Positions 7,862 to 26,995 of a stretch of DNA of 64,000 nucleotides are shown in pieces. The notes under the pieces are model-generated. The model searched no databases, was not told where the DNA came from, and saw nothing but the letters and a program-made list of their open reading frames with translations. The stretch is from a virus. Position 1 is the stretch's first letter; each line of letters begins with the position of its first letter. The stretch covers positions 1-64,000 of IMG/VR virus record IMGVR_UViG_3300025084_000007, one strand, 5' to 3'. A program made the translations under genes and the position numbers.

Positions 7862-7867
7862 AAATAG

Positions 7868-13800: not shown

Positions 13801-16800
13801 TACTAATACTAACTCAGGAAGTCCTTTTGATGCATTTATTGCTTTAGTTGATACTGCTGGTAGTTTTGCAATTAAGAGAAAAATTGCTTCTGTAGATGAT
13901 TCTGAAAAACTTACCGATATTGTTGTAAGTGGTGATGATATTTACTTCACCTTAGAAACTTCTAATACTATCAATGATAACAATGTTAATGTTGCCTTTG
14001 GTAAAGCACTTGTAGGAGTCAATGCAATTGAGATTGACTTTATTAAAGAGTATAGTAATGCTGGATATTCATTCTTAGATAGTAGTCTTGCTATTGATGA
14101 ATTTAATGAACTTTATATCAATGCCACACTTAGAGCAAAGAGTGATAATGTCACTAGAGACAGTGTTTGGGTTGGTAAAGTTGATGTTACTGGTGATTTT
14201 GTTTGGAACTACAGGTATCTTGCTCCAGGTAGAGATGTAAATGCTATTGGACAATGTGCTATCGATATTTTTGGCGATTTAAATATTGCTTTCAATAGAG
14301 TAGATAATACCACTGGTCTTAAAACTGTAGATACAGTTAAGATTGGATATGATGGTGTAGTCAAAAATCATACAACTAATGAGTTTAATGAGAATAGAGT
14401 TGTTGGCATTACAGCAAATGCTATGGATGTGGACAACTCTGGTGATGTATATGTCTTTGGTCAAACTTCATGGAACAGAAACGAATTTTTACTTGAGTTT
14501 ACTGGTGGTGCTACTACAGATACCTTTGGTAACTATACCCCGACGTTTGTTGGTAATGATGCAACACAGTCACTGCATTTAGATGGTGGACTTGCAAAAC
14601 TTTATGGTAGAGATATTGCAACTCCTGCTAATTGGGAAAATGCATATATTGAATTCCCCAACAACACCTTAGGCAATTCACTTAATGAAAACTGGACTTT
14701 AGAGTTCATGTTATATCAGGATTCTGCTTCTACTGATACACATAATCAAGATCAACAAACTTTAGTTGCTATTGGTGATGCTACCGATGCAACTGGTGGT
14801 CTCTGGTTGTATTATGATCGCACTTCAGCAGGTCCATCTGGAAAATTGGAGTTGGTTGTAACTAACAACACCACATCTATCAATTCTTCTAGCGGTGCAG
14901 TACAGTCTACGCTGTCTACAATGTTTGCTGATGATACTTGGCAATTTATTGGATTGAAGAAGGAAGGTAATGTATTTACAGTTTATGTAAATGGTATTAG
15001 TGTCATTACTGCTACTGTTGCTGATACATCCTTCACATCCAAGAAACTTTATATCGGTAATATTGCTGGTAGAGATGGAACACCTGGAAGTTACAGAAAA
15101 GATGAGCAAGGTCAGTATTTTGTAGATAATCTCAAACTGAGAAATCGTGCAATTGTTCCTACAGTTCCTTCTGACGTATCTGTTCTACCTACTAATGGTG
15201 CATTTGCTTTAAGTTATAGTTGGACTGATACAGCATGGTTCAGTGCATACAATGATGTATATGATTATATTGATTTTTCTGGTTGGGGTGTAAAAGTTGA
15301 TAAAGATGCTGATGCCGCAAGAATTGGTGATCAAGGTATTCAACTAACTACTCAACTTGGGTATGTTCGTACTGCAGTTACTCCTGTAACAGGTAGTGCC
15401 TTAACTATTGGTAATACAGGATTCGCTTTAGGTTCTTTAGGTCTTCAATCTTTAGATTTTGATGACGCATCAACTGTAATGGTAGAAGATACCGAAACAT
15501 TGACATATACTAAAGATATTTGGAGTACCAGAACTGCCACGATTCCTTCTCCTGGATCACAGAAACTGATTATTAGTGCAGTTGTTAAGGATAGGTATTA
15601 CTTTAAAATTACTGACACCGTTAAAATTGACAATGTTCAAATTTTAACTATTAATCAGGCGTTTAGATTCACTGTCGGTACAAAGTTAACTTTGAATGAC
15701 TCTAGTGGAGCTTTTGTCAATAGCGGTTATATTACAAAAGTTGATAATGAAAACAATAAAGTATATCTTGCAATTAATAACAATTCTTGGACTAATGACT
15801 TAAATGCGGGTCAACTTTCCACATCTCAATTTAGTGAGCAAGATACCTATGGTATTGTTGGACCAATTCCTCTTGATATCAACCAAATCGATTCATATAC
15901 ATTTGCTCAAGTAGATAATACTACTCCTGGAACTTTTACTATCGATCTCGACAAGTATAACTTGGATGGTACTTTCAATGCAGCAGGTGGTCAGAATCTA
16001 GATTCCTTTGCTCAGTTCAAACCATATTCCGACGATGATTATGCAGTTAGAATTGATGAAATCTCAGGATCTTCTACATTCATTGTAGGATCTGTAGTTA
16101 CTATAAACGGTGGAGACATTAGTTATAATGCTGCATACAGCACAGCAACTATTACTAATCTCACTGGTGTACTTAAGATTACGTTAGTTGCTAATCTAAC
16201 AAAGATTCTTAGAGTTACTGCTGTAGCAAATAGTGATGAAGTCTATGTCATCACAGGTACTAGACACTATTTGACTCCTGGATCTATGTTGAACTTGGAT
16301 GGAAATCCATCTGAAACTGTTGGTGGAACTGTTTATGATGAATATGATGGTTCATTCCCTGTAGATACTGTAATTAGTCCTCTAGAGTTCACATACAAAC
16401 TTCCACAGGCAGCAATTACAAGTCCTGCTACTAGTGCTAGTGATGTTAGCATCTACATCAAATCACCTGTTTTGAAAATGTATTATGGTCACCAGTATTT
16501 GTTTGACCTTAGTCACTCTTCAATGGTTGGTGGTAATTTATCTTTCGCAAAAGATCCTCTTTACAAACTTGAGTATTCATTCAACTCTATTGAAAGAGTT
16601 GGAATTCCTGGAGTAACTGGCGAAGGTGCCACTACACCTACCGTTAAGTTCAAAGTTGATGAAGATATTGTAACAAACATTTCGTACTACTTCGATCCCT
16701 CTAGGGTTGGTGACAACGATTCACCTATCATTCAAGGTAGTTATCTTGATGTTGTTGGATCTCCATATAGAGGAACATTCCAAGTTAGTGGTATTGATGG

Positions 16801-19800
16801 TGCAACTATTACTAGAGGAGCAGATCAGATCAAATTCCCTCTAGTAAATGAACCCGAAGGTAATGCTGACGTCTCTAGAGTATCTTATTCAACTAGTTCT
16901 AGAAGAGCAGTTGGTTCGATCGATAGCATTCGTATTGTTAATCCTGGTGGATTCTACACAAGACTTCCGATTGTTTCCAGCATTCAATCTACAAGACAGA
17001 TTGAAAGAGTTACCATCAACGAACCTGGTACTGAATATGCTGTAGGACAATATACAGGCGTTCCTATTGCTGGTGATGGTGAAGGTGGTTTCGTCACAAT
17101 TACAGTTGCTGATGGAACTGATAGCGAAGGCGGTGCAATTCCTGGACAAGTTCAAAGCGTTCTTGTTACATCAGCAGGAAAAGGATATACCACAGCATCT
17201 GTTGACATTGATTCTATACCAGGCATTCTTGGTGCTGGTCTAACTGGTTCTGGTGCTGAAGTTACTGTAGTCATCCCCCCATTTGGAACAGCGGCATCTA
17301 TCTTTACTGTAGGTTCTAGTGTTGGTAAGATCAAAAAACTGAAAAATAATAACTTTGGTTATGATTATCCCCATGACTATACATTACGTCCTGAAATTAC
17401 ATTCCCGATCAATGCACAGTTAACATCTACTAGTATTTTGGATAGTGTTACAGTCACTGATCCTGGTTCTGGTTATTCTCAGGCACCTGCAGTTATTATT
17501 ACTGGTGGTGGCGGTAGTGGTGCTATTGCCCAATCCACTATTAAGAATGGTCGTTTGGATAGGATTGAAGTTAAAGATCCTGGTCTTGGTTATTCGTCTA
17601 CACCAGCTGTAGAACTGAAATCTTCCTTTAACTATGTTGTTAACCTAGATTTGGGACTCTTACAGTTCTCCTTCCCACATGGTATTGCACAAGGTTCAGA
17701 AATTACTCTTAATGTAGTAGATACTGGCGATGGTGCAGATTTCCCAATCGCTGCTGGTGCAGTTGGTAGATTGAACGGTCTTACTACTTATTATGCAATT
17801 GCTGGAACGGCAAATTCTCTTGAAGATGATCAGTTAAAATTTGCGATTACTCCAGCAAACGCAGCACTTGGTGATGCATTAGCATTTACTAATGCTGGTA
17901 CAGGTCGTCAGCAAGTTCTTACAACATCTTTCGGTGGTGCAGCAACAGCAAATGTTATTACATCAACTTTCCTTGAGGGTGAGCAAGTTTATCAAGGCAG
18001 TTCCTTTGAAAATGCTACTGCATTTGGATTTGTCTCTACAAATAACGGTTGGCAAGTTGGACCTAGAATTGTAAAAATCGTTGATTACACTGGAGACTTC
18101 AACATCGGTGAATCTGTAACAGGTGTTATTTCTAAATCTTCTGGTACTATTAGTTCCTTGAATATCGCTACTGGTGTTCTGGATGTTGGATCTATTACAG
18201 AAACCTCTGGTCAATTTATTGATGATGTTGGTAAACCCTCTGAGATCATTCAGAAGATCCAAGACTCCTATTATTATCAGGACTTCTCTTATGCAGTTAA
18301 GTCTGCAATTTCAATCAATGATTGGAAAGATATTCTTATCAAGAATGTTCACCCTGCATCATTCAAAGTTTTTGGTGAACTTAATCTAAATGAGTATGGA
18401 TTTGTTCCTAATAAGGAAACATTCTTCCAACTGACAAAATCAGTTGAACTTGCAAGACAAGCAACTGTTCCAAATATTCAAAGTTTTGCTCTGGTTGAAC
18501 CTGTATATACTGCGTTCGATAATACTGAGGTATTGTTCCGTCAGAAACGACTGACTTCTTCGGAGAACATCTTAACATCAGTTGTTCAAAGACTTGACGA
18601 TATTTCTAATCTATTTGATGGTGAGAGAATTGCATTCCCACTACAAATTGATGGATCAAACGTTGTTGCAAACGCAAATCAGTTGATGATCATTTTGAAT
18701 GGTGTTGTACAAACTCCAGATACAGCATTTGAAGTTCAAAACGATTCTATTGTCTTTGCCGAACCACCTCAACCTCCTGCTAGTGTCAAGTATGTAAATG
18801 TAACTATTCAACCAATTCAGGTTTATAAATTTACAATCACTAATAATAGTGGTATTTTCCCAAGCACTAATAACACTGTCCTAGGAACACAGTCTGGATC
18901 AAGACTTACTGTTACTAGTGTTGTTGGTGATGATATCTTCGGTTTTATTGCCGAAGGTAATGTTGGTATTGTTACTGCACTTGATAATGCCACACTAACT
19001 GGTGGTGCTGGTTATACTGATGGAACTTATACAAATGTCTCTACAACTTCTAGTGGTGTCGGTACAGGACTTACTGTCAATATTACTGTTGCTTCTGGTG
19101 CTGTAACACAGGCAAGTATCAACAGTGTTGGTGTTGGATATGCATCCTCCGAAGTTATCACAATCACAGGTGGTACTACATCAGCAACTATTGCAGTCAC
19201 TAGTGTTAGTGGATTCAATATCAACGAACTGATCAGTGTTGGTGCAACTGGATTTACTGCAACTCTCACAGAAATTACTCCAATATCCAATCTCAATCTG
19301 TTTAGTTTCAATGAACAGATTAAGAATCTGACGGGTAAAATTGCTATAGTTGAAGAAGTTAACCTGGAAACAGGGGACGCTGTTCCTCTTGCAGATTTAA
19401 GATACACTATTGGTGCAGGAACAACTTCTATTGAAATTATTGCTTCTTCTGCACTCTATGATACTGCAGTTCCAGAAGGAGTATTTACTATAGGTGCTAA
19501 CTATCAACTGGGAGCAGAGATTGTTACTGTATCCGATGTTACAGTTGGACCCGATTCAACTACGCTGACTGTACAGAGAGGACAATTAGGAACAACTGCA
19601 ACTTCTCACCAAGAAGATCTGCCTGTATATGGTACTGACATTAATATTACTAATGAATTGGCATTGAGTAAGACCGTAGGTACATATCAGTCAAAACCTG
19701 GTCTATTCGATATTCAACTCGATGATGTCATTATTGGATCTCAGTCAGGTGTTGTTGCTAGAATTACCTCAACATCTGCATATCAAGATCCCGTCACAAG

Positions 19801-22800
19801 CGAGTTTATTGAACAGGTTAATATTTCTGATGGATCATCTTTCTTTGGTCTATTGTTCAACAGATTGACGTCTGCTTCATATCCTAATGTTATTCTTGAT
19901 AATATTTCCGAGTCTCAAGTAAATATTGTCGATTTTACCGATAACACTACAGACTTTGATGCCAAGTTCCCTGGAACTGAGTTTATTAGCAATTTAGTTA
20001 TCCCTTATGACAATGCTACAGGTACATTCCAAGAAAACGAAGTTATTCGCAACTACAAACTTGGATATGGCAATGTAACAGGCAGTTTCAACTCTGCTGA
20101 GGATATGGTCACCAAGAAACTTGCTTTTGATGGTAGAGTTGGGTCTGGATTCTTCCAACTCGGACAAGTCATTAGAACTCAAGATACTAAAGGTGAGGTT
20201 ATTGGATACAATCAAGCACTTTCCACAATCTATCTGGGTAAAGTAGGTAGAACTCTTTCTACTGGCGAAGATTACCATCAGGTTACTTTTGCGAACAATG
20301 CTCAATTAGATACCGATCAAAGTCATTATGGATTGACGTCTCTACTGCTTGACGGTACTGGAGATTATCTGTCTATCCCAACTTCTACTGAATTTGGTTT
20401 TGGTACGGGTGCATTTACAATCGAATGTTGGATTCGTCCTTCAAGCGTTACAGGAACTCAGCAAATCTTTGATTTTAGAGCGACTGCCACTGAAGTTTCT
20501 TCAGAACTGCTACTTGTAGGAACAAATCTTAACTACAGAGTTAACGGTTCTACTACAATCACTGGAACGGCAACTCTTGAAGTAGATACTTGGTATCATG
20601 TCGCTATCTCAAGAAATGCTGCTACAACTAAGTTATTTGTTAACGGAACACAGGATGGTGGAGATTTTGCTGATGGTGGCAACTACGGATCCACTAAACC
20701 AATCATCATAGGTGCCTCCTATGCCTTTGGAGACGGTTTCGCTGGTCATATCGATGAGTTCAGAGTATCTAACACTTCGCGCTATCAGACGACATTTACT
20801 GCCCCTACAGGAATCTTCCAGGGTGATGCTAATACTAAGTTACTACTTCACTTTGAAGGTGCTGACACTCAAACATACATTGAGGATTGGTCTGGTGGTG
20901 AGTCGTTTACAGACAACGAAGACTTCAACAACGATGCCATTCTCAAGAACTGGAATGAAAATTCCACAAATCTTCCTGCTGGATTCGCAGGTAAGTCACA
21001 ACGATATTATGATGCTGCCAACTTAATCGAATCTAATAAAGAATTCGTTGCTAAGGAAGCAGTTTACTTACTGACTCAACAGTATCCATCACTCGTAATT
21101 CCTGGTGGTAACGTAAATTGTGAAGATGATGTTCGCGATATCCTTACTGCTTTGATTGAGGATCTCCGTAACGGATGTAATAGTCACATCTGGGATGCTT
21201 CGGCATTGTATGTTGATAGAACTGTTAATCCTGTGACAATTAGTCATGTTGATACAGAAGTTACAGAAACTGTCTGGGCTTACGATAAAGTCAAAGATAT
21301 TCTTCAATATATCATCAATAATACTCTCTGGTCTGTTTCTGGCAGTCATGGCGTAAGACAAATCACTGATACCACAATTACTGATTCTTCAACATCATCC
21401 TTTACCACAATTCAACCATCAGCAATTTCGTATGATGCTGCTACTGGTGATATGGTTATGACATCAGGCGGTCATGGATTAACGACAGCAAATACAATCG
21501 CTATTGCTGCAGAGTCATTGACATTCACATGTGCCAGTGATGGTAATGAGAGAGAATTGGTTCATCCTCGTGTGAGTGATACTAGAGCATATAATCAGGT
21601 TCTTGCAATCACTGCGGTTACAACCGATACTTTCACTGTCAATGTCGGAGCATCTCCAACTGAGCAGCAGTATGGTCATACATTTGTAAGTGCATCTTCT
21701 AATGCGGTTACAGTTCTTGATTACAGTACAGGTGATTGTGCTGATGTATATTCCACGATTGGCAACCTTCTGGATATCCTTACAGATACCCTTGAGCAAG
21801 CAGATCTTGGTACTCCTGTAGATCACTTGGCAACTATCACTAAGGTAGAAACCAATTATGAATTTGTTGGCGCTACTGTAAATGCATTCCTCGAAGTTCC
21901 GTTTACCACCACATATCATAGTGCTGCTTCGGATATCTTATATACCAATAGGATTGACGTTTCTGCTCGTGGAAGATTCCGTGATGCTTCAAATCTTATC
22001 AATTCAAATGCTGCAGTTATTGTTGATAAAGCAGCACATGATATGCTCACTAGGTATCCAGATCTTGCTGTTGATATGCCTAGAAACGCTGCTGGTGGCA
22101 GCACCGATGGAACTCTTCGCTGTAAGACTGACTTAGGTCTGATCTTATCAGGAATGGCGAAAGATATTTACGATGGAGGAAACTTCTTCACTGTTCAGGC
22201 TGCTAACTTCTATATTGGTGAAAACGATGAACTTAGACATATTCGTCTGCAAGTATGGCAGTCGGTATATGCTCATGAGAGACTTGGATTCTACGCTAAG
22301 CAAGCAGTTACAGGCGATCTAACTTATGACAATACTGACAATATTATCGTTGGTGATTGGGGTATTACTAATGACGCAGGCAACTGTGCAAATGTCCAAT
22401 CCGCTATCGATACATTAGTTAGCACTATCAATGATATCATCGCTCCAACTAGCGAAGACTTCAATATTGCTGGTGACAGACTGTACTTCAACCGCGAATA
22501 TATTGCAGAAGAAATTACAGGTCTTACTGCAGCATATTTGACATATCAAGTCGATAACTCAAATCAAGTAGCATACACATATGACACTGCTAAGTGTGAG
22601 CGTGATATTAAGTTACTGATTACTGCAATCATCTCCGACCTACAGACAGGTGGTAATAACAGTACAGTTGATAACATGAATCTGTACTTAACTGCTAATG
22701 GAGAACTGAATCATGTAGAAGAAGAACTTCTTCCTACAGTATTTGCCTTTGAGCAGATTAGAACACTTGGTGAAAAAGCAATAAGAAATCTTCTATATGA

Positions 22801-25800
22801 TTCAGGTGCAACTGTAACGGGAAATCAATATTCTGCTATTTTCAGTGATAACACTGCATATAGAGATACTGAAATTCCTACAGATATCGATCAAGCAGTT
22901 TGGAGACTTCGCGATCTAGTTGATATTGTTACCAAGGGTCTTGCGCCTTCAGGTAATTCAGTTAGAAATGCCGTCAAGAACTTCTACTTCAATCTTAAGT
23001 ACTATAAGGATGAAATTGGAGCACAGATTGATAGTCAGTTTGGTTCTGGTTCTTGGATATATGATTCGTTCCTTGAAGAAACTGCAAACAATATTGCAGC
23101 AGATAGTATCACAACAGATACAAGTTCTGCAAATACTATTGTTGCTTACGAAATCTCACTTTCTAACATTGTTGGAGACTTCACAGTAGGAGAAACCGTA
23201 ACATCTAGTAATGGCACCACTGCTCAAGTACTTGAGTTTGATAAAGACAATCAGTCAATGTATGTTGGTACTTTCTCATCTACTGCTTGGGCAGTTGCTA
23301 ATACTCTGACGGGCGGAAGTAGTACTGCAACTGCAACTATTGCTGCACCATATGGATCTGTAGTATTTGATGGAACTGGCGACTACTTGCAAACTGCTGG
23401 TATTGCACTTGGAACTAGCAACTTTACTCTTGAAGGATGGATCCGTCGTGTTGACACAAATACAAACTTCTACGTATCTGGGTCAACCACTAATGACTTT
23501 GGATTCTTCGTGGGAGCAGGTTCTTCTAATATCGGTTTCTACGGTGGAAGTAGTGCTAACTTTGTTAATCTCACTAACACTACTATCAATGTTTCTGGTG
23601 GTAGATGGTATCATGTTGCTGTCGTAAGAGAAGGAACGGGTGCTAACCAAACTTCAATCTATATCGACGGTATTCTTCAAGGTAGTGGAACTGTAGCAAC
23701 TAACTATGGTTCTACTGCAATCCTCGTAGGTTCGAGTACGACTACTACTGAATATTCCGCTGGAAACATTTCCGACTGGAGATTGTCTAGCGTTGCTGTT
23801 TATCCGAAAGGAACTACGGCAATTGGAGAAAAACTGTTCGCGCTTCCTACAAGACCATTTGTTGCAGCAGACGTTACTGAAACTGAACTTCTATTATGTC
23901 AAGGTAATACTATTCAAGATAATGGACCTAACACGGTCTCTGTAACTGCTTATGGTGATGCTGCTCCTGCTACAATATCACCATTTGGTACTTTCCCTGG
24001 CGTTTCTAATTCCTTTGATTGGTATAACAGTGTCACTAATGTTGAGATTCTTGCTCAAGCAAGGGCAATCAGTTCGCCAGTCACAGGAGAAGTTAGCAGT
24101 GCAAATCTCTGGACTAATCCAGAAAATCTAAATGCATCTAATTATACCTCTAACTTAGTAGGTTATTACAATAATGCTACCAGTGCTCCTGATGGAACAC
24201 AAACTGCTGAAAAACTCTATGCCACAGGTACTGGAGTACACTCACTAACTAGAGATTTCAACCTAACTTCATTTGAAACCTTTGATAACTCAACGGTAAC
24301 ATTTGATAGTGGCACTGAAACATTCGATACTGGATTTGGTGGTATTAATGAGCAGCAGTCATTTACATTGTCGGCATTCTTTAAGAAAGCAGAACTTGAT
24401 AGTCTCAACTTTAAACTTTCTTTGGATAATCAGTCGAAGAATATTAACTTCAATGTCAACCTTTCCACAGGTCAGGTTGACGTAGGAACAGTGTTTACAA
24501 GTCCTGGCATTACTCTTAATGAATATGGAGTAACACCTGTTGGTGGTGATTGGTTCCGTGTATATGCAACTATCACCTTCGGTTTTGGTATCGACAATCT
24601 TCAAGGAGACTTCGCTATCTATAATCGTTCAGCTATCGCTGCTTCAGGAAATCAAGGTTTCTATGTTTGGGGTATTAAACTCAACTCTGGTTTCCTTGAT
24701 CCTTATACTGCTGGATCTGGCAAGTTGTTCTATTCAAATACCGAATATAACATTAAGACATATGCACTGGATCTTCTGACTGAGTACATGATTGCTTCAA
24801 TTTCTAATGAACTTGTTGTCCCTTCTCCTCTTGCTGTTGTAGGTTCGTTCTACCAGGATCCAACATCAGCAGCTGCTCTTCCTGATGGTAACTACAGCAA
24901 TGAATCTATCGCTAGATTGATTCGTTATGGTACTAGTACAATTAAGAATCAGTTTATTAATGATTCATACTATACAAATCTCACTCAATATAATGCTGTA
25001 ACTTTCGGTTCTAAAAACTATGGTGTTAGAGATATTCCTGTAGGAATTACTGGAGGACTAAATGCCTCTGATTATTTCTATGGATTGAGTTCTGATTCAA
25101 ATGCTGAACTTGCTAATCTCACTACTAACGAGGGTCTGATCGTTAAAGTTTACAGAAGATTCCGTATAGACGGAGATATTACTGATGGTCCATTCACCAT
25201 GAATGAAACTGTTGCTAAGCAGGGTGCTCCTAGTATCACTGGTGTAGTTTACGGATTCTATGAGGATGAGAACTTTAAGTATCTCGATGTTGAAGTTACT
25301 GCTGGTCCTTGGGCGGTTACAGACTTTATCGTTGGTGGGGAGAACTCAACAACTGCACAAATTAGTGCCATCGAAGATCGCATTCATATCATCGATCTTC
25401 AGGGAGACTTTGTTGAGGATATTCAATTCCTTGGTTATACTTCTGGAGCAGTTGCTGAACCTACTTCATTCATCAAAACAGAAGCATCTGTTACTTCCAA
25501 TAGTGGAGGTCTCCTGACAGTTGACACTGAGAGTTTGGTAGGGACTTTTGAGAAAAACTCAGTAGTCTATCCAGCATCGTCTAGAAAGTACATTGATGTA
25601 TCTCAGGTTTCTGGTCTTCAGGTATCGGTTGGTGATCGCATCGCGTCTGATGGATACATTAGATTGGGTGTCTCTGTTATTTCAACTTCAAATGTATTCA
25701 TTGTTGGAAATAGGATCTATAAGGTTGTTAATAATCTTCAAGATAACAGTGTATATGGTGTTATCACTGAAGTAGATCTAGATAACAACTATATCTACAT

Positions 25801-26995
25801 TACCATGATTCAAGGTGAGTTCCAAAATGGTGACTACATCGGAGATTATGGAGTTGATATTTTCCCTCAAGGTTTCGCCACAATCAATACAAAGGTTACG
25901 GTTGATGGTGCAGCATCTGCTCGCGTCCAAGACGTCAGAGCAGCAGGATTGAGTAAGAGAATATATCTTACAGATATCGCAGGAGCATTTACGAGCAAGG
26001 ATGCTATTATCGGGTCTTCTTCTTATAAAGCAGTCATCACGGATGTCGTAGATCTTAAAGCTCGCGTGAAGAGAGCATCCAAAGGATTTGATGGTACACA
26101 AACTAACTTCTCTCTCACCATTGAAAATGGAACTCCATATCTGCCCGATCCAGAAGGACACATGATGATTTTCGTCAATGGTATTCTTCAACCTCCTGGA
26201 GCAACTAACGCATATACAGCGTTCTCCGACCAAATTCAATTCGCTGAGGCACCAGAACTTGGGTCCTCATTTACTGGATTCTATATTGGTAAGATGAGAC
26301 AGTTGGATGATATCTCGTTTGAATTTGATTCCTTACGCCAGTCATTCAACCTCAAGCGTAATGAAGTATTCTATTCACTCACGCTTACAGAAGGTGTTCA
26401 ATCTACTGTGATTAGACCCGAAAATAATATTATTGTTTCTCTCAATGGTGTTGTTCAGGAACCTGGAGTTGGTTTTGAGATTGTTGGTTCACGAATCATC
26501 TTCTCCGAAATTCCTCGCGTAGATTCCACATTTGTCGCATTCTCTTATGTTGGTTCTGAAGCAGACGTTGATGCTGCTGAGGTAGTTCCACCAATCGAAG
26601 CAGGAGACTTCATCGAGATTGAGGGAGAAACTGAAGATCGTGAGGTAGCGGTTATTGAATCGTCTAACTCTCTCATCACCTTCGATTATCTTGGGTCAGT
26701 CTTTGGTCAAGGTGCCATCGGGCAATCTGCACTTACGAGCGGATTTATTAACACTGTCCAAGTCACTTCTGGAGGTTCTGGTTACACAAGCAGACCTACA
26801 GTTAGAATCGACTCTATCTCTGGTTTCGATGGCAATATCCGCGCATTGGTTGGCATCTCTACGGTTCAAATGAACGAGTATGGTTCTGGATATCAAAATC
26901 CAGTTATCGTTATTGAGAGTGAAGTTCCCGATGATTGGACCGCACCAAATCTCGCAGATTATGGTGAAGAACTAGTTGATCCAGAGATCGCATAA
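7868..26995 (+). CDS. gp7: giant gp7-like baseplate wedge initiator / multidomain structural protein (6375 aa)
   Basis: gp7 core motifs IKDFYSAKGT..YLFKLLYG and QDSYYYQDFSY...VHPASFKVFG; position between gp6 and gp8; LamG-like, propeller-like, YHYH-like and GxGY repeat domains. Confidence 0.85.
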   Translation: MDINKVSNVSSYQTPQFIESEYPLFNKFIEYYYQSQEKTGLGQNIVNNFLQYLNIDKLDISILDGASKLVEPISVTDTTITVETVDPFLEKNGSILIGDEVIYYEKTVSSPNIALTPGISYPQVQLKWVLLANNMGDFDGTRTIFPLVSQDNPIGPSSPQHLIVKVYGKTLTPVVDYTISGTNIVYETAPRTALASDDISTTSITYLNGFSENSIVKVDDVSTAFGDNKTTFELTVNNQKYEPVADEFLLAIYDNRLLVPKVDYFTDGSIFVFNTPPLNGRSLSLYSIEAPIPSFGSGAIGYARVNDNGNISSVIPSTNGSGYRFDYPPKVSVNSSVGSSASVKTLVDGIKEVSLLSGGAGYSESNPPTVKVQFPTKEGYTEPTLKATVTNGEVSAIDIVSSGSGYTFTPRITFEQPGGATVAAPTISNGSISGTISITNPGQGYTTPPLVYIDEPTGTDGIKASFTTVLTDGEITAVNILNAGQGYETVPRIAVIDPVGAQVLETIVDGDGRVISVELLFGGSGYTDVPSVYIVDNRQNDVGTYIGGTGATAVAAIFNGQITDINITNFGSGYSADNPPQIVIQKPVDAKASAEVGLQEVTGFSVLKSGTEYTKAQFLGCARAASGITQYTQDGNAVFSNSTVAAEGSVDAPVKCLDALFVKRLLDKYTEQFLPDVPALDYTKIDVRTSIKTIKDFYSAKGTSFSIAYLFKLLYGETVTVSYPKDQIIKPSAATWSVDTVLRATLVSGLPENIQDGLLEQVADISDPNILQATALIENFISIQTAQDTIYELALSEETIQGTFVVPYKTKLAEPLNTTEGIITVDSTIGWPERNGEFVISTGVGSEVVQYKEKSLNQFIECTRSVNGVVEDWDSATQVSSNFNVFINKGTAQEVVLNIVGIVDAQQTTLTDTGSYYLPGDKLLISKLGGTGSGPELTTWLYNVKKLIEVGSITFGGINNQSATVTCNNPHGLLVGDQVTIYGANPIVYNGSFLVTSRDSTTVFQYQLPQPATVVPQGNILVSIDLNKGKSDSSAVNNAISPYTTNIQNTFFNTTNTYIASTGIPNYNIGPFPGSALLPGNQRKLNRFPIVPVTISTKNLIVPGPIGTWVNGVSIWSYKSDVTKIFGSVTSVDITNAGSGYDAAFPPAITISGGEGTGAAATATVNGSISGVTVTEGGSGYTSSPLVSIVGGGGSGASATAIITKGVVSSILVNSGGTGYTSQPSITVVGGGGSGAEGTAAVRGPIQSVTITDGGESYTSNPSIVLSSGTGAVAQAIVNDGRIISIAIISAGSGYTTAPEVTIQGDGFGAVARATIDVDGENAGKVTRIEIINRGIGYSQGTTIINLNSVGQGATFAANVFQWTYNLQETTTVDAAKGSVFEGFNNQYGGEYAHLSNPQRLRYILGDNLFVNVNGQILEQDDQLAHSPIIGWAFDGNPIYGPYGYSDPTNQASSVSRLATSFRLKTNLVYDEITNPTPTRTAGPLLSDEIAGKFVEDYEYTFGLGDLDQYNGRFCKTPEYPNGRYCYFVTIDATEAGNPVFPYILGPSFNSVVDTWNLSTSAVQQNIPVGVVRYRDPYENVDIDVERAPNASTNGLTLENGDLLTFDVEDENRDGVITADEIADPDQIFEESPLQLFDYFPTVKLDSKVDIEVETITKFEDASITGFVVENSGINYQVDDRLIFDNTDTGGDGASARISRIKGESVSGYTFENVSGDNFGVLTTSVPHNLQLGDSVFVDYTPIMDNTNKSFVVRQYKGIEEIVITQSGSGYNEDIPPSLIIDGDGVSGDLEAIVTSVGSIDTVNILNSGSGYSANPRVITSHPQVFKKAEYIVSKIENNENVKVNDVFVNSGKEIFICGKTLDSSGNSVAFVSKLSTTGVKEWEKTLELTSGTEYAEFQKLYVDGDDIWVVGVNRPNILVLDAYNPDIILVKYTQSANGLSASLQFQKGYSGISGSTRADNITCIKKYSDTRYVIGGFTNTNSGSPFDAFIALVDTAGSFAIKRKIASVDDSEKLTDIVVSGDDIYFTLETSNTINDNNVNVAFGKALVGVNAIEIDFIKEYSNAGYSFLDSSLAIDEFNELYINATLRAKSDNVTRDSVWVGKVDVTGDFVWNYRYLAPGRDVNAIGQCAIDIFGDLNIAFNRVDNTTGLKTVDTVKIGYDGVVKNHTTNEFNENRVVGITANAMDVDNSGDVYVFGQTSWNRNEFLLEFTGGATTDTFGNYTPTFVGNDATQSLHLDGGLAKLYGRDIATPANWENAYIEFPNNTLGNSLNENWTLEFMLYQDSASTDTHNQDQQTLVAIGDATDATGGLWLYYDRTSAGPSGKLELVVTNNTTSINSSSGAVQSTLSTMFADDTWQFIGLKKEGNVFTVYVNGISVITATVADTSFTSKKLYIGNIAGRDGTPGSYRKDEQGQYFVDNLKLRNRAIVPTVPSDVSVLPTNGAFALSYSWTDTAWFSAYNDVYDYIDFSGWGVKVDKDADAARIGDQGIQLTTQLGYVRTAVTPVTGSALTIGNTGFALGSLGLQSLDFDDASTVMVEDTETLTYTKDIWSTRTATIPSPGSQKLIISAVVKDRYYFKITDTVKIDNVQILTINQAFRFTVGTKLTLNDSSGAFVNSGYITKVDNENNKVYLAINNNSWTNDLNAGQLSTSQFSEQDTYGIVGPIPLDINQIDSYTFAQVDNTTPGTFTIDLDKYNLDGTFNAAGGQNLDSFAQFKPYSDDDYAVRIDEISGSSTFIVGSVVTINGGDISYNAAYSTATITNLTGVLKITLVANLTKILRVTAVANSDEVYVITGTRHYLTPGSMLNLDGNPSETVGGTVYDEYDGSFPVDTVISPLEFTYKLPQAAITSPATSASDVSIYIKSPVLKMYYGHQYLFDLSHSSMVGGNLSFAKDPLYKLEYSFNSIERVGIPGVTGEGATTPTVKFKVDEDIVTNISYYFDPSRVGDNDSPIIQGSYLDVVGSPYRGTFQVSGIDGATITRGADQIKFPLVNEPEGNADVSRVSYSTSSRRAVGSIDSIRIVNPGGFYTRLPIVSSIQSTRQIERVTINEPGTEYAVGQYTGVPIAGDGEGGFVTITVADGTDSEGGAIPGQVQSVLVTSAGKGYTTASVDIDSIPGILGAGLTGSGAEVTVVIPPFGTAASIFTVGSSVGKIKKLKNNNFGYDYPHDYTLRPEITFPINAQLTSTSILDSVTVTDPGSGYSQAPAVIITGGGGSGAIAQSTIKNGRLDRIEVKDPGLGYSSTPAVELKSSFNYVVNLDLGLLQFSFPHGIAQGSEITLNVVDTGDGADFPIAAGAVGRLNGLTTYYAIAGTANSLEDDQLKFAITPANAALGDALAFTNAGTGRQQVLTTSFGGAATANVITSTFLEGEQVYQGSSFENATAFGFVSTNNGWQVGPRIVKIVDYTGDFNIGESVTGVISKSSGTISSLNIATGVLDVGSITETSGQFIDDVGKPSEIIQKIQDSYYYQDFSYAVKSAISINDWKDILIKNVHPASFKVFGELNLNEYGFVPNKETFFQLTKSVELARQATVPNIQSFALVEPVYTAFDNTEVLFRQKRLTSSENILTSVVQRLDDISNLFDGERIAFPLQIDGSNVVANANQLMIILNGVVQTPDTAFEVQNDSIVFAEPPQPPASVKYVNVTIQPIQVYKFTITNNSGIFPSTNNTVLGTQSGSRLTVTSVVGDDIFGFIAEGNVGIVTALDNATLTGGAGYTDGTYTNVSTTSSGVGTGLTVNITVASGAVTQASINSVGVGYASSEVITITGGTTSATIAVTSVSGFNINELISVGATGFTATLTEITPISNLNLFSFNEQIKNLTGKIAIVEEVNLETGDAVPLADLRYTIGAGTTSIEIIASSALYDTAVPEGVFTIGANYQLGAEIVTVSDVTVGPDSTTLTVQRGQLGTTATSHQEDLPVYGTDINITNELALSKTVGTYQSKPGLFDIQLDDVIIGSQSGVVARITSTSAYQDPVTSEFIEQVNISDGSSFFGLLFNRLTSASYPNVILDNISESQVNIVDFTDNTTDFDAKFPGTEFISNLVIPYDNATGTFQENEVIRNYKLGYGNVTGSFNSAEDMVTKKLAFDGRVGSGFFQLGQVIRTQDTKGEVIGYNQALSTIYLGKVGRTLSTGEDYHQVTFANNAQLDTDQSHYGLTSLLLDGTGDYLSIPTSTEFGFGTGAFTIECWIRPSSVTGTQQIFDFRATATEVSSELLLVGTNLNYRVNGSTTITGTATLEVDTWYHVAISRNAATTKLFVNGTQDGGDFADGGNYGSTKPIIIGASYAFGDGFAGHIDEFRVSNTSRYQTTFTAPTGIFQGDANTKLLLHFEGADTQTYIEDWSGGESFTDNEDFNNDAILKNWNENSTNLPAGFAGKSQRYYDAANLIESNKEFVAKEAVYLLTQQYPSLVIPGGNVNCEDDVRDILTALIEDLRNGCNSHIWDASALYVDRTVNPVTISHVDTEVTETVWAYDKVKDILQYIINNTLWSVSGSHGVRQITDTTITDSSTSSFTTIQPSAISYDAATGDMVMTSGGHGLTTANTIAIAAESLTFTCASDGNERELVHPRVSDTRAYNQVLAITAVTTDTFTVNVGASPTEQQYGHTFVSASSNAVTVLDYSTGDCADVYSTIGNLLDILTDTLEQADLGTPVDHLATITKVETNYEFVGATVNAFLEVPFTTTYHSAASDILYTNRIDVSARGRFRDASNLINSNAAVIVDKAAHDMLTRYPDLAVDMPRNAAGGSTDGTLRCKTDLGLILSGMAKDIYDGGNFFTVQAANFYIGENDELRHIRLQVWQSVYAHERLGFYAKQAVTGDLTYDNTDNIIVGDWGITNDAGNCANVQSAIDTLVSTINDIIAPTSEDFNIAGDRLYFNREYIAEEITGLTAAYLTYQVDNSNQVAYTYDTAKCERDIKLLITAIISDLQTGGNNSTVDNMNLYLTANGELNHVEEELLPTVFAFEQIRTLGEKAIRNLLYDSGATVTGNQYSAIFSDNTAYRDTEIPTDIDQAVWRLRDLVDIVTKGLAPSGNSVRNAVKNFYFNLKYYKDEIGAQIDSQFGSGSWIYDSFLEETANNIAADSITTDTSSANTIVAYEISLSNIVGDFTVGETVTSSNGTTAQVLEFDKDNQSMYVGTFSSTAWAVANTLTGGSSTATATIAAPYGSVVFDGTGDYLQTAGIALGTSNFTLEGWIRRVDTNTNFYVSGSTTNDFGFFVGAGSSNIGFYGGSSANFVNLTNTTINVSGGRWYHVAVVREGTGANQTSIYIDGILQGSGTVATNYGSTAILVGSSTTTTEYSAGNISDWRLSSVAVYPKGTTAIGEKLFALPTRPFVAADVTETELLLCQGNTIQDNGPNTVSVTAYGDAAPATISPFGTFPGVSNSFDWYNSVTNVEILAQARAISSPVTGEVSSANLWTNPENLNASNYTSNLVGYYNNATSAPDGTQTAEKLYATGTGVHSLTRDFNLTSFETFDNSTVTFDSGTETFDTGFGGINEQQSFTLSAFFKKAELDSLNFKLSLDNQSKNINFNVNLSTGQVDVGTVFTSPGITLNEYGVTPVGGDWFRVYATITFGFGIDNLQGDFAIYNRSAIAASGNQGFYVWGIKLNSGFLDPYTAGSGKLFYSNTEYNIKTYALDLLTEYMIASISNELVVPSPLAVVGSFYQDPTSAAALPDGNYSNESIARLIRYGTSTIKNQFINDSYYTNLTQYNAVTFGSKNYGVRDIPVGITGGLNASDYFYGLSSDSNAELANLTTNEGLIVKVYRRFRIDGDITDGPFTMNETVAKQGAPSITGVVYGFYEDENFKYLDVEVTAGPWAVTDFIVGGENSTTAQISAIEDRIHIIDLQGDFVEDIQFLGYTSGAVAEPTSFIKTEASVTSNSGGLLTVDTESLVGTFEKNSVVYPASSRKYIDVSQVSGLQVSVGDRIASDGYIRLGVSVISTSNVFIVGNRIYKVVNNLQDNSVYGVITEVDLDNNYIYITMIQGEFQNGDYIGDYGVDIFPQGFATINTKVTVDGAASARVQDVRAAGLSKRIYLTDIAGAFTSKDAIIGSSSYKAVITDVVDLKARVKRASKGFDGTQTNFSLTIENGTPYLPDPEGHMMIFVNGILQPPGATNAYTAFSDQIQFAEAPELGSSFTGFYIGKMRQLDDISFEFDSLRQSFNLKRNEVFYSLTLTEGVQSTVIRPENNIIVSLNGVVQEPGVGFEIVGSRIIFSEIPRVDSTFVAFSYVGSEADVDAAEVVPPIEAGDFIEIEGETEDREVAVIESSNSLITFDYLGSVFGQGAIGQSALTSGFINTVQVTSGGSGYTSRPTVRIDSISGFDGNIRALVGISTVQMNEYGSGYQNPVIVIESEVPDDWTAPNLADYGEELVDPEIA

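What the first reader, a model, noticed from the sequence alone, without database searches (positions are those of the whole stretch)
21002..23110. Tandem phycobiliprotein-like domains with chromophore-type cysteines inside the giant baseplate protein
Seen: three helical repeats plus a degenerate fourth in an otherwise beta-rich protein. R1 is RYYDAANLIESNKEFVAKEAVYLLTQQYPSLVIPGGNVNCEDDVRDILTALIEDLRNG...STGDCADVYSTIGNLLD (Cys at 21119 and 21737). R2 is RFRDASNLINSNAAVIVDKAAHDMLTRYPDL...LRCKTDLGLILSGMAKDIYDGG...GNCANVQSAI (Cys at 22121 and 22385). R3 contains AKCERDIKLLITAIISDLQTGG (Cys at 22595). Established (recalled): phycobiliprotein subunits read roughly RLDAVNRITSNASTIV...EQPQLIAPGGN...AACLRDMEIILRYVTYA..AGD with a C-terminal GDCS (beta-84 and beta-155 bilin sites); alpha subunits read KCARDIG...L.AGG. 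Four separate motifs line up in order: DA.N.I.SN, P.L..PGGN, C-x-x-D...GG and GDC. Inference: these are globin-fold, phycobiliprotein-related domains displayed on the virion. They could be bilin-chromophorylated, since many T4-like cyanophages carry T-type lyase (cpeT) or bilin reductase genes (none in this window). That would imply a pigmented or light-responsive baseplate. They could instead be a repurposed structural fold.
Basis: partly seen in the sequence, partly recalled or inferred. Interest (0 to 1): 0.9.

Follow-up and report, generated by a model that had tools for sequence, protein, structure and literature searches.

The report
Phycobiliprotein-like domains in cyanophage baseplate protein
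A giant baseplate protein of a marine cyanobacterial virus contains three domains that are true relatives of the host's pigment-carrying antenna proteins and keep the pigment-attachment cysteine, so the virus particle may itself carry a bile pigment and perhaps sense light; nobody has tested this at the bench.

Summary
The 6375-aa ORF (window 7868-26995, the gp7 position of a Syn33/S-RIM12-like T4-type cyanophage) holds three homologous helical units plus a two-helix remnant. All five cysteines lie at the stated coordinates.

Four independent tests place the units in the phycobiliprotein (PBP)/bilin-binding-globin superfamily:
- Pfam PF00502 scores above its cut-off.
- A profile against PDB sequences gives E 4e-6, with the unit Cys and Asp on the bilin Cys84 and Asp87 of C-phycocyanin alpha.
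- hhalign against real PBPs gives 94-95% probability.
- An AlphaFold model (pLDDT 85) has PBPs as its best structural matches (Z 16.9).

The units lack the N-terminal X-Y helices, so they are not antenna subunits.

The family is much wider. 1228 representative proteins carry up to about 30 tandem units, and C-x-R-D is 93-99% conserved across 1241 units. Among cultured phages the units occur only in cyanophages. Uncultured jumbo phages that carry them also encode heme oxygenase plus a bilin reductase. cpeT lies just upstream of unit-bearing fibre genes in several cyanophages.

Bilin attachment is therefore plausible (about 0.5) but untested. A role in light-dependent adsorption is speculative.

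I found no paper describing this. This scan has noted the same domain family in at least 33 other genomes.

The parts
7868..26995 (+). Giant virion structural protein (6375 aa) in the gp7 (baseplate wedge) position.
   Evidence: It is a single ORF. Pfam finds Baseplate_wedge PF23786, YHYH and Laminin_G_3. In Syn33 the orthologue lies between gp25/gp6 and the gp9/gp8 baseplate genes. Orthologues in P-SSM4 and P-HM2 are annotated gp7.
21002..21316 (+). R1, N-terminal five helices of a PBP-like unit. It carries the PGGN motif and the C4418-E-D-D motif (Cys codon 21119-21121).
   Evidence: Pfam PF00502 matches profile positions 32-68. phmmer against PDB hits APC beta-18 and C-PC beta. The unit profile matches at G000:20999-21391 with E 3.6e-26. 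AlphaFold places helices at aa 4377-4483.
21317..21724 (+). Beta-rich insertion domain inside R1, between the fifth and the last helix.
   Evidence: The AlphaFold model has strands at model residues 145-243. In some homologues this insertion grows to about 2000 aa.
21725..21817 (+). R1 last helix, with GDC (C4624, codon 21737-21739).
   Evidence: The unit profile matches its C-terminal positions 121-162 at G000:21644-21805. AlphaFold places a helix at model residues 251-271. This Cys is present in 116 of 116 homologues.
21962..22471 (+). R2, a complete uninterrupted PBP-like unit (aa 4699-4868). It carries C4752-K-T-D (Cys codon 22121-22123) and GNC (C4840, codon 22385-22387).
   Evidence: The AlphaFold model has pLDDT 85 and pTM 0.83 and is all-helical. 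The Foldseek top ~50 hits are all PBP beta subunits. VIA-align gives PE beta Z 16.9. The Cys is conserved in 115/116 homologues and the Asp in 116/116.
22466..22969 (+). R3, a PBP-like unit (aa 4867-5034) with the full C4910-E-R-D motif (Cys codon 22595-22597) and no C-terminal Cys.
   Evidence: The unit profile matches with E 2.7e-57. AlphaFold places helices at model residues 489-651. The Cys is kept in only 62/116 homologues.
22952..23113 (+). R4, a two-helix remnant resembling the first helices of a unit.
   Evidence: AlphaFold places helices at model residues 655-684 and 693-708. The unit profile does not match here.
20351..20782 (+). LamG/concanavalin-like jelly-roll domain immediately upstream of the PBP-like triplet.
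   Evidence: Pfam Laminin_G_3 scores 126 bits with two stretches, the best at aa 4162-4305.

Best explanation
**Shown.** R1-R3 are domains of the phycobiliprotein / bilin-binding-globin superfamily built into the baseplate (gp7-position) protein of a T4-like cyanophage. Each is a bare globin core (helices A-H) without the X-Y hairpin that antenna subunits use to pair. R1 has a beta domain inserted before its last helix.

**Inferred.** While the virion is assembled in the cyanobacterial cytoplasm, the Cys of the C-x-x-D motif receives a thioether-linked bilin. This is the full C-E-R-D in R3 and C-K-T-D in R2. The bilin would be host phycoerythrobilin or phycocyanobilin. Attachment would be either autocatalytic, as in BBAG globins and ApcE, or helped by the phage T-type lyase CpeT, which the complete relatives of this phage encode. 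The finished baseplate would then carry a few pigment molecules per protein copy.

**Speculative.** The pigment would make the baseplate or fibre apparatus respond to light. That would give a physical basis for the light-dependent adsorption seen in some cyanomyoviruses.
For: **Homology and fold.**
- Pfam PF00502 scores 27.2 bits against a cut-off of 22.2 on window:20996-23110.
- All top phmmer hits in PDB are PBPs.
- The unit profile against PDB hits C-phycocyanin alpha at E 4e-6, with 'kC-k-r-D ... GGn' aligned to 'KC84-A-R-D87 ... GGT'.
- hhalign against 19 genuine PBPs from two cyanobacterial genomes gives Prob 94.1% (E 1.3e-7). A 120-unit family alignment gives Prob 95.3% (E 2.3e-8) over 97 columns, with C-x-R-D on C-x-R-D.
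- The AlphaFold R2 model has pLDDT 85.
- The Foldseek top ~50 hits are all PBPs, with TM 0.6-0.74.
- VIA-align gives PE beta Z 16.9 with rmsd 2.5 over 152 of 170 residues, then APC 14.7 and ApcE 14.5. Other globins score 12 or less.

**Constraint on the bilin site.**
- In 1241 units from 150 representative proteins, Cys is conserved at 97%, Arg at 93% and Asp at 99%.
- In this lineage R2 keeps the Cys in 115/116 homologues and the Asp in 116/116.
- The conserved Cys usually has no partner Cys in the unit, so a disulfide does not explain it.
- Rockwell et al. 2023 (PMC10151467) state that CXRD is the PBP bilin-binding motif. They show that BBAG-1 and BBAG-3 globins carrying this motif attach bilins without lyases.

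**Phyletic pattern.**
- Among 50,697 cultured-phage records the unit is found only in cyanophages (382 and 321 records).
- Three near-complete uncultured jumbo phages that carry a PcyX-like bilin reductase all have CxRD units: G018 (93% complete), G027 (100%) and G030 (85%). None has psbA, and G018 also has an adjacent heme oxygenase.

**Neighbourhood.**
- cpeT lies 1.2-4.3 kb upstream, on the same strand, of unit-bearing fibre genes in S-PM2, in G004 and in G009/G019/G024/G025. In that last group ho1 sits next to cpeT.
- The complete relatives of this phage carry cpeT.

**Light.**
- P-HM1, P-HM2 and S-PM2 adsorb only in light and all have the units.
- P-SSM2 adsorbs in the dark and has neither units nor cpeT.
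Against: - No pigment has been shown, and nothing here tests binding.
- In this phage's lineage the motif is partly decayed. R1 is C-E-D-D and R2 is C-K-T-D, both without the Arg.
- The Cys is lost in 27/116 R1 copies and 54/116 R3 copies.
- The S-RIM12/Syn33-type genomes have no heme oxygenase or bilin reductase.
- In these genomes cpeT is about 40 kb from this gene.
- CpeT-type lyases are known to serve the beta-153/155 site, not the Cys-82 site. The claimed beta-155-like GDC could not be aligned.
- Two jumbo-phage records with multi-unit proteins (G011 and G012, 66-72% complete) show no bilin genes.
- Co-occurrence with cpeT is confounded, because both are cyanophage traits.
- The light-adsorption correlation rests on three independent phages.
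- PBPs and BBAGs are generally photochemically inert.
Confidence: 0.5

Rival explanations
1. The domains are an apo structural module. They descend from a captured bilin-binding globin but no longer bind pigment in this phage. They would serve as rigid helical spacers or interaction modules in the baseplate periphery. The conserved Cys, Arg and Asp would be kept for folding or packing.
For: - R1 and R2 lack the Arg of CxRD.
- The Cys is lost in 23% of R1 copies and 47% of R3 copies among close homologues.
- R1 tolerates a beta-domain insertion that reaches about 2000 aa in some homologues.
- This lineage has no bilin-synthesis genes.
- P-SSM2 builds a virion without any unit.
- Literature searches found no report of coloured cyanophage particles.
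Against: - A lone Cys with Arg and Asp at exactly the PBP chromophore positions is conserved at 93-99% in 1241 units that are otherwise only 20-30% identical.
- The R2 Cys and Asp are invariant.
- The family occurs only where PEB or PCB-type bilins are available, from the host or from phage genes.
- ho1 and cpeT are repeatedly linked to unit-bearing genes.
Confidence: 0.4
2. The pocket binds a different ligand or serves a different chemistry. Possibilities are non-covalent biliverdin or heme, a metal, or a host surface molecule. The domains would then act as receptor-binding or sensing modules unrelated to PEB or PCB.
For: - The fold is also close to heme globin sensors and stressosome RsbR domains (Z 9-12).
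- BBAG-2 relatives bind biliverdin.
- The units sit beside LamG lectin-like domains in a host-facing protein.
- The family-specific invariant Asp68 and GG(N) are not PBP chromophore residues.
Against: - No His is conserved in the unit at the position a heme-ligating proximal His would need. The invariant and nearly invariant columns are listed.
- PBPs outrank all heme globins in both structural searches.
- The conserved triad is the bilin triad.
Confidence: 0.08
3. The resemblance to phycobiliproteins is a chance or compositional match of amphipathic helices.
For: - Single-domain Pfam scores are below the cut-off (17.7 and 13.6 bits).
- Single-sequence PDB E-values are only 0.02-0.4.
Against: - Profile methods give E 4e-6, 1.3e-7 and 2.3e-8.
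- Multi-unit relatives score 42-61 bits on PF00502.
- The structural match Z 16.9 stands well above unrelated helical proteins.
Confidence: 0.02

Closest known systems
Light-harvesting phycobiliprotein subunits (CpcA/B, CpeA/B, ApcA/B; Pfam PF00502)
   Same: They share the globin-like helices A-H. They are the best structural matches (Z 16.9; TM 0.6-0.74). The Cys and Asp, and in R3 the Arg, align with the bilin-binding C-x-R-D. R1 keeps the PGGN motif.
   Different: - The units have no X-Y N-terminal hairpin, so the usual alpha-beta pairing or ring assembly is not expected.
- They are not a ~170-aa subunit but three tandem domains inside a 6375-aa virion protein.
- R1 is interrupted by a beta domain.
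- Asp68 and GG(N) are family-specific invariants.
- Sequence identity is only about 15-20%.
ApcE (core-membrane linker) bilin-binding domain
   Same: It is a PBP-type domain embedded in a much larger multidomain protein. ApcE attaches its bilin autocatalytically (established knowledge). VIA-align gives Z 14.5.
   Different: ApcE is a cellular phycobilisome component with REP linker domains. It has one PBP domain with a loop insertion, not tandem copies in a phage structural protein.
BBAGs (bilin biosynthesis-associated globins; Rockwell, Martin & Lagarias 2023, PMC10151467)
   Same: They are non-antenna members of the same superfamily. Some carry CXRD and self-attach bilins. They are genetically linked to heme oxygenase and FDBR genes, as the phage units are in G018 and in G009/G019/G025 (G024 has ho1 but no FDBR on its 36%-complete record).
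   Different: BBAGs are small stand-alone bacterial proteins in V4R / iron-sulfur clusters. The phage units are tandem modules of tail-fibre or baseplate giants. No BBAG sequence was available here, so the relative closeness to BBAGs versus PBPs was not tested.
T4 gp7 baseplate wedge protein
   Same: It has the same gene position (after gp25 and gp6, with gp8 and a gp9-like gene a few genes downstream). Pfam Baseplate_wedge scores 30.3 bits against a cut-off of 27 near the N-terminus.
   Different: This protein is about six times longer than T4 gp7. It has added YHYH, LamG, Ig-like/beta and PBP-like domains.

Membership tests
Phycobiliprotein / bilin-binding globin superfamily (Pfam PF00502) | Sequence-profile match to the family. 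| tested here: met
   - PF00502 scores 27.2 bits against a cut-off of 22.2 for the three-unit region, summed over R1 and R2. Single units score below the cut-off.
- The profile against PDB hits C-PC alpha at E 4e-6.
- hhalign against 19 real PBPs gives Prob 94-95% and E 1e-7 to 2e-8.
Phycobiliprotein / bilin-binding globin superfamily (Pfam PF00502) | Globin-like all-alpha fold closest to PBPs. | tested here: met
   - The R2 model has pLDDT 85.
- The Foldseek top ~50 hits are all PBPs.
- VIA-align gives PE beta Z 16.9, rmsd 2.5 and 152 residues aligned. Non-bilin globins score 11.7 or less.
Phycobiliprotein / bilin-binding globin superfamily (Pfam PF00502) | C-x-R-D chromophore motif at the Cys-82/84 position. 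| tested here: met
   - R3 has C-E-R-D, the full motif.
- R2 has C-K-T-D and R1 has C-E-D-D. Both keep the Cys and Asp but have lost the Arg.
- The motif is aligned to the PBP C-x-R-D.
- Family-wide, Cys is 97%, Arg 93% and Asp 99% conserved.
Phycobiliprotein / bilin-binding globin superfamily (Pfam PF00502) | Covalently bound bilin. | not testable with these tools
   This needs co-expression with bilin synthesis genes, or mass spectrometry and spectroscopy of virions.
Light-harvesting phycobiliprotein subunit (antenna alpha/beta) | N-terminal X-Y helices that mediate alpha-beta pairing, in a stand-alone ~160-180 aa subunit. | tested here: not met
   - The matches start at Pfam profile position ~25-33 and at PBP residue ~30-38.
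- The units are internal to a 6375-aa protein.
Light-harvesting phycobiliprotein beta subunit | Second bilin site at beta-153/155 (GDC at the start of the last helix). | tested here: inconclusive
   - G-D-C (R1) and G-N-C (R2) sit at the start of the last helix.
- No sequence or profile alignment joins them to the beta-155 region.
- Family-wide only about 30% of full-length units have this Cys.
BBAG (bilin biosynthesis-associated globin) | Gene clustering with heme oxygenase and a ferredoxin-dependent bilin reductase. | tested here: not met
   - G000 and the complete relatives G001-G003 have no HO or FDBR. They have only cpeT, about 40 kb away.
- The feature is met in distant phage relatives. 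HO and FDBR are adjacent in G018. ho1 and cpeT lie next to the unit-bearing gene in G025.
T4-type gp7 baseplate wedge protein | Position in the baseplate gene module and a baseplate-wedge signature. | tested here: met
   - Pfam PF23786 scores 30.3 bits against a cut-off of 27 at aa 683-728.
- The Syn33 orthologue lies between gp25/gp6 and the gp9/gp8 genes.
- Orthologues are annotated gp7 in P-SSM4 and P-HM2.

The most novel reading that the evidence does not exclude
The phycobiliprotein-like CxRD domains in cyanomyovirus baseplate and tail-fibre giants are bilin-carrying photoreceptors. They gate adsorption by light. They would also be the real substrates of the phage lyase CpeT. In jumbo phages of likely heterotroph hosts, they would be the acceptors of the bilins made by the phage HemO-PcyX cassettes. 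Several 'auxiliary metabolic' pigment genes would then serve the virion itself rather than the host antenna.
Probability: 0.2. Interest if true: 0.95.

Novelty: new variant of a known kind. Interest (0 to 1): 0.8.

Why it matters
Two acknowledged open questions become directly testable.

First, cyanomyoviruses such as S-PM2, P-HM1 and P-HM2 adsorb only in the light, independently of host photosynthesis. [quoted passage not shown] 2019, PMC6628666).

Second, phages that probably infect heterotrophs carry HemO-PcyX/PcyA cassettes. The authors themselves say the purpose of these cassettes is unknown (PMC11480375).

A family of virion proteins with up to about 30 phycobiliprotein-like domains per chain offers one concrete acceptor for phage-made or host-made bilins. 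Nearly every domain keeps the bilin-attachment triad, and the family is restricted to phages that have access to such bilins.

If the domains are pigmented, this would be the first chromophore-bearing phage particle. It would also be a new branch of the bilin-binding globins. It could supply compact tandem biliprotein scaffolds for fluorescence tools.

If they are not pigmented, it is still a clear case of a host antenna-type fold recruited into phage structural proteins.

Tried and rejected
- **Self-BLAST of aa 4300-5200.** It showed no internal repeats. The repeats appeared only when each unit was searched against the giant homologues.
- **C-terminal helices alone against PDB.** R1 gave no hits and R2 gave only a hemagglutinin at E 0.42. 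hhalign in global mode did not align the C-terminal Cys to PBPs. I therefore dropped the beta-155 equivalence as unsupported.
- **The search for related loci with alignment A2 on genome contigs.** It failed because no stretch was conserved enough. The same search with a phage CpeT found no cellular relatives. I did not survey cellular genomes for the unit.
- **The look-up of encoding contigs.** Two queries exceeded the 5000-residue limit. I took the context of the multi-unit proteins from IMG/VR loci instead.
- **Gasper et al. 2017 on PhiCpeT.** The paper is not held in the library, so the lyase's substrate range rests on my recollection only.
- **Literature searches.** Searches for phycobiliprotein-like or bilin-globin domains in phage structural proteins returned nothing relevant.
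- **Obligate intradomain disulfide.** I rejected this because the two Cys occur independently.
- **Not attempted.** I did not try complex prediction with CpeT, a phylogeny against BBAGs (no BBAG sequences were available by reference), or a base-rate control of unit frequency in jumbo phages that lack bilin genes.

Full report
**What is there.** The finding lies inside one open reading frame, window 7868-26995 (+), of 6375 aa. The phage is a T4-like cyanomyovirus about 92% identical in this region to Cyanophage S-RIM12 and Syn33 (Kyanoviridae, Brizovirus). In Syn33 the orthologous 'virion structural protein' sits after gp25 and gp6 and before the gp9/gp8 baseplate genes. Pfam finds a Baseplate_wedge signature near the N-terminus, a YHYH domain and LamG-type domains. 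Orthologues in P-SSM4 and P-HM2 are annotated gp7. It is therefore a hugely expanded baseplate protein.

**Checking the observation.**
- The three units are true paralogues. Each unit searched against 120 giant homologues also finds the other two at E 1e-7 to 1e-8. A unit HMM finds three copies in 99 of 120 homologues and four in the rest.
- The AlphaFold model of aa 4375-5140 (pLDDT 75) shows R1 as five helices, then a beta domain (aa ~4519-4617), then a last helix.
- The same model shows R2 and R3 as compact helical units and R4 as only two helices.
- The unit profile also matches R1's detached last helix.

**Are they phycobiliprotein-like?** Yes, by four independent routes.
1. Pfam PF00502 (Phycobilisome protein) scores 27.2 bits on the region against a cut-off of 22.2. 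This is summed over R1 and R2, and single units fall below the cut-off. Several homologues carry a precomputed PF00502 hit.
2. phmmer against PDB sequences returns phycobiliproteins as all six best hits and ten of eleven in total, at E 0.02-2.4. A profile of 50 R2 and R3 units hits C-phycocyanin alpha at E 4e-6. That alignment puts the unit Cys and Asp on Cys84 and Asp87 of 'KCARD'.
3. I took 19 genuine phycobiliprotein genes from Synechococcus RCC307 and Chlorogloeopsis PCC 6912 and ran hhalign. The result is Prob 94.1%, E 1.3e-7. With a 120-unit family-wide alignment it is Prob 95.3%, E 2.3e-8 over 97 columns, again with C-x-R-D on C-x-R-D.
4. The AlphaFold model of R2 (pLDDT 85, pTM 0.83) is all-helical. 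Its top ~50 Foldseek matches in PDB are all phycobiliprotein chains, mostly beta subunits. An independent all-against-all structural search ranks them as follows:
   - phycoerythrin beta: Z 16.9, rmsd 2.5, 152 residues
   - allophycocyanin: 14.7
   - ApcE: 14.5
   - photocobilin globins: 12.3
   - heme globins and RsbR: 11.7 or less

The matches begin at PBP residue ~30-38, so the X-Y hairpin of antenna subunits is absent.

**The cysteines.** Among 116 close homologues:

| Unit | First Cys | Asp | C-terminal Cys |
|---|---|---|---|
| R2 | 115/116 | 116/116 | 93/116 |
| R1 | 89/116 | 91/116 | 116/116 |
| R3 | 62/116 | 65/116 | 5/116 |

The two Cys occur independently of one another, so an obligate intradomain disulfide is unlikely. 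In this window the motifs are C-E-D-D (R1), C-K-T-D (R2) and C-E-R-D (R3).

**The family is far larger than the finding.**
- The unit profile against 1.84 billion representative proteins finds 1228 proteins at E <= 1e-3. Some giants have about 30 unit domains by my re-scan (P0125, 4799 aa), and up to 35 matched stretches are listed in the search.
- These giants score 42-61 bits on PF00502.
- Over 1241 units from the best 150 proteins, Cys is present in 97%, Arg two residues later in 93%, and Asp in 99%.
- This is the CXRD motif that Rockwell et al. 2023 describe as the phycobiliprotein bilin-binding motif. [quoted passage not shown]
- In BFVD the fold recurs in cyanophage 'tail', 'tail fiber-like' and 'long tail fiber' proteins.

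**Where the family occurs.** Among 50,697 cultured-phage records the unit is found only in Synechococcus and Prochlorococcus phages (382 records with the 705-aa query, 321 with R2 alone).

In uncultured viral contigs it also occurs in freshwater cyanophages and in jumbo phages without psbA. I then started from the other side. A PcyX-like bilin reductase of the 330-kb phage G018 retrieves more than 100 viral contigs. Of 20 of these records scanned, four have units, and those four include both near-complete genomes. Counting G018 itself, the three near-complete genomes are:
- G018: 93% complete, with heme oxygenase and the reductase adjacent to each other and next to curli genes
- G027: 100% complete
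- G030: 85% complete

All three carry ORFs with CxRD units and lack psbA. The 2024 paper on such cassettes states that their purpose in phages of non-cyanobacterial hosts is unknown.

**Gene neighbourhood.**
- In S-PM2, cpeT lies 1.45 kb upstream, on the same strand, of a 3779-aa 'short tail fiber' giant that carries units.
- In the freshwater cyanophage G004, cpeT is followed by an endonuclease VII gene, then a 3504-aa multi-unit protein, then two tail-collar proteins.
- In G009, G019, G024 and G025, ho1-cpeT lie 1.8-4.3 kb upstream of a ~2900-aa protein. In G025 that protein has 13 CxRD units, mostly 'CARD'.
- For the phage of this window the record is only 64% complete and does not cover the region where cpeT lies in its relatives. 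The complete relatives all have cpeT but no heme oxygenase or bilin reductase, and there cpeT is about 40 kb from the giant gene.

**Light.** P-HM1 and P-HM2 do not adsorb in the dark, and S-PM2 adsorption is light dependent and independent of photosynthesis. P-SSM2 does adsorb in the dark.
- The unit scan finds 6 hits in P-HM1, 6 in P-HM2 and 10 in S-PM2. These include full CxRD motifs in p091, which is annotated 'tail fiber protein'.
- It finds none in P-SSM2, even at E <= 10.
- P-SSM2 also lacks CpeT, while the other three have it.
- This amounts to three independent phages, so it is a lead and not a test.

**Reading.**
- Shown: the units are members of the phycobiliprotein / bilin-binding-globin superfamily, recruited into virion proteins, with the chromophore triad under strong constraint family-wide.
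- Inferred (about 0.5 for this protein): they are chromophorylated during assembly, using host bilins and perhaps CpeT.
- Against this for the window's lineage: the Arg is lost in R1 and R2, the Cys is lost in many R1 and R3 copies, the genome has no bilin-synthesis genes, and T-type lyases are known for the beta-153/155 site rather than Cys-82.
- The main rival is an apo structural module (about 0.4).
- A photoreceptor role in adsorption is speculative (about 0.2).

**Novelty.** Five literature searches found no description of these domains in phage structural proteins. Database pipelines already place PF00502 on some homologues. After reaching the conclusions above, I found that this scan has recorded the same domain family in at least 33 other genomes, with similar readings. 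Those are unchecked AI notes and not independent evidence.

**Limits.**
- I could not survey cellular genomes for the unit.
- No BBAG sequences were available for a tree.
- I did not measure the base rate of units in jumbo phages that lack bilin genes.

Noticed in passing
window 21317-21724; homologues P0007, P0014, P0067: The beta-rich insertion inside R1 is itself a repeated module. In some homologues about 1900-2000 aa separate the R1 N-part from R2 (for example, P0007 has R1 at aa 4385-4516 and R2 at aa 6476). A globin-type domain is thus split by a very long insertion yet keeps its last helix and its invariant Cys.
   Followed up: partly
L170 (G018:262000-278000), ORFs at 6380-11650: A 330-kb uncultured phage has a heme oxygenase-bilin reductase pair. 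Next to it lie HSP20, ClpS, and curli genes (CsgF, CsgG and a curlin-repeat protein), followed by a FecR-like gene. Curli secretion genes in a phage are unusual and point to a Gram-negative heterotroph host.
   Followed up: partly
L373 (NC_006820 158000-180000): The S-PM2 RefSeq record lists 17 tRNA features inside the coordinates of the 3779-aa 'short tail fiber protein' CDS (165928-177267), and they share its locus tag. The ORF is open in the stretch I read (166000-170700), so these tRNA coordinates look like an annotation artefact.
   Followed up: no
P-SSM2, NC_006883 (handle W02): P-SSM2 adsorbs to its host in the dark. It has no PBP-like unit at all (none even at E <= 10) and no CpeT. P-HM1, P-HM2 and S-PM2 need light to adsorb and have both.
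   Followed up: partly
P0205 / P0285; L269: Partial multi-unit proteins are deposited under 'Candidatus Nanopelagicaceae' MAGs, on contigs of 2-5 kb. A psbA 97% identical to the psbA of freshwater cyanophage G004 sits in a MAG labelled Gammaproteobacteria. Both look like phage or cyanobacterial contigs that were mis-binned.
   Followed up: no
window 20351-20782 and about 23300-23900: The PBP-like triplet is flanked on both sides by LamG/concanavalin-type jelly-roll domains (Pfam Laminin_G_3, two stretches). The helical units are therefore set between lectin-like modules in a host-facing protein.
   Followed up: no
L171 (G025:22000-40000): Many units in the multi-unit fibre proteins are a short form that lacks the first two helices (profile positions 43-160). 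Runs of ~35-aa helical hairpins that match only the first helix precede them. The array is therefore built from at least two unit types.
   Followed up: no
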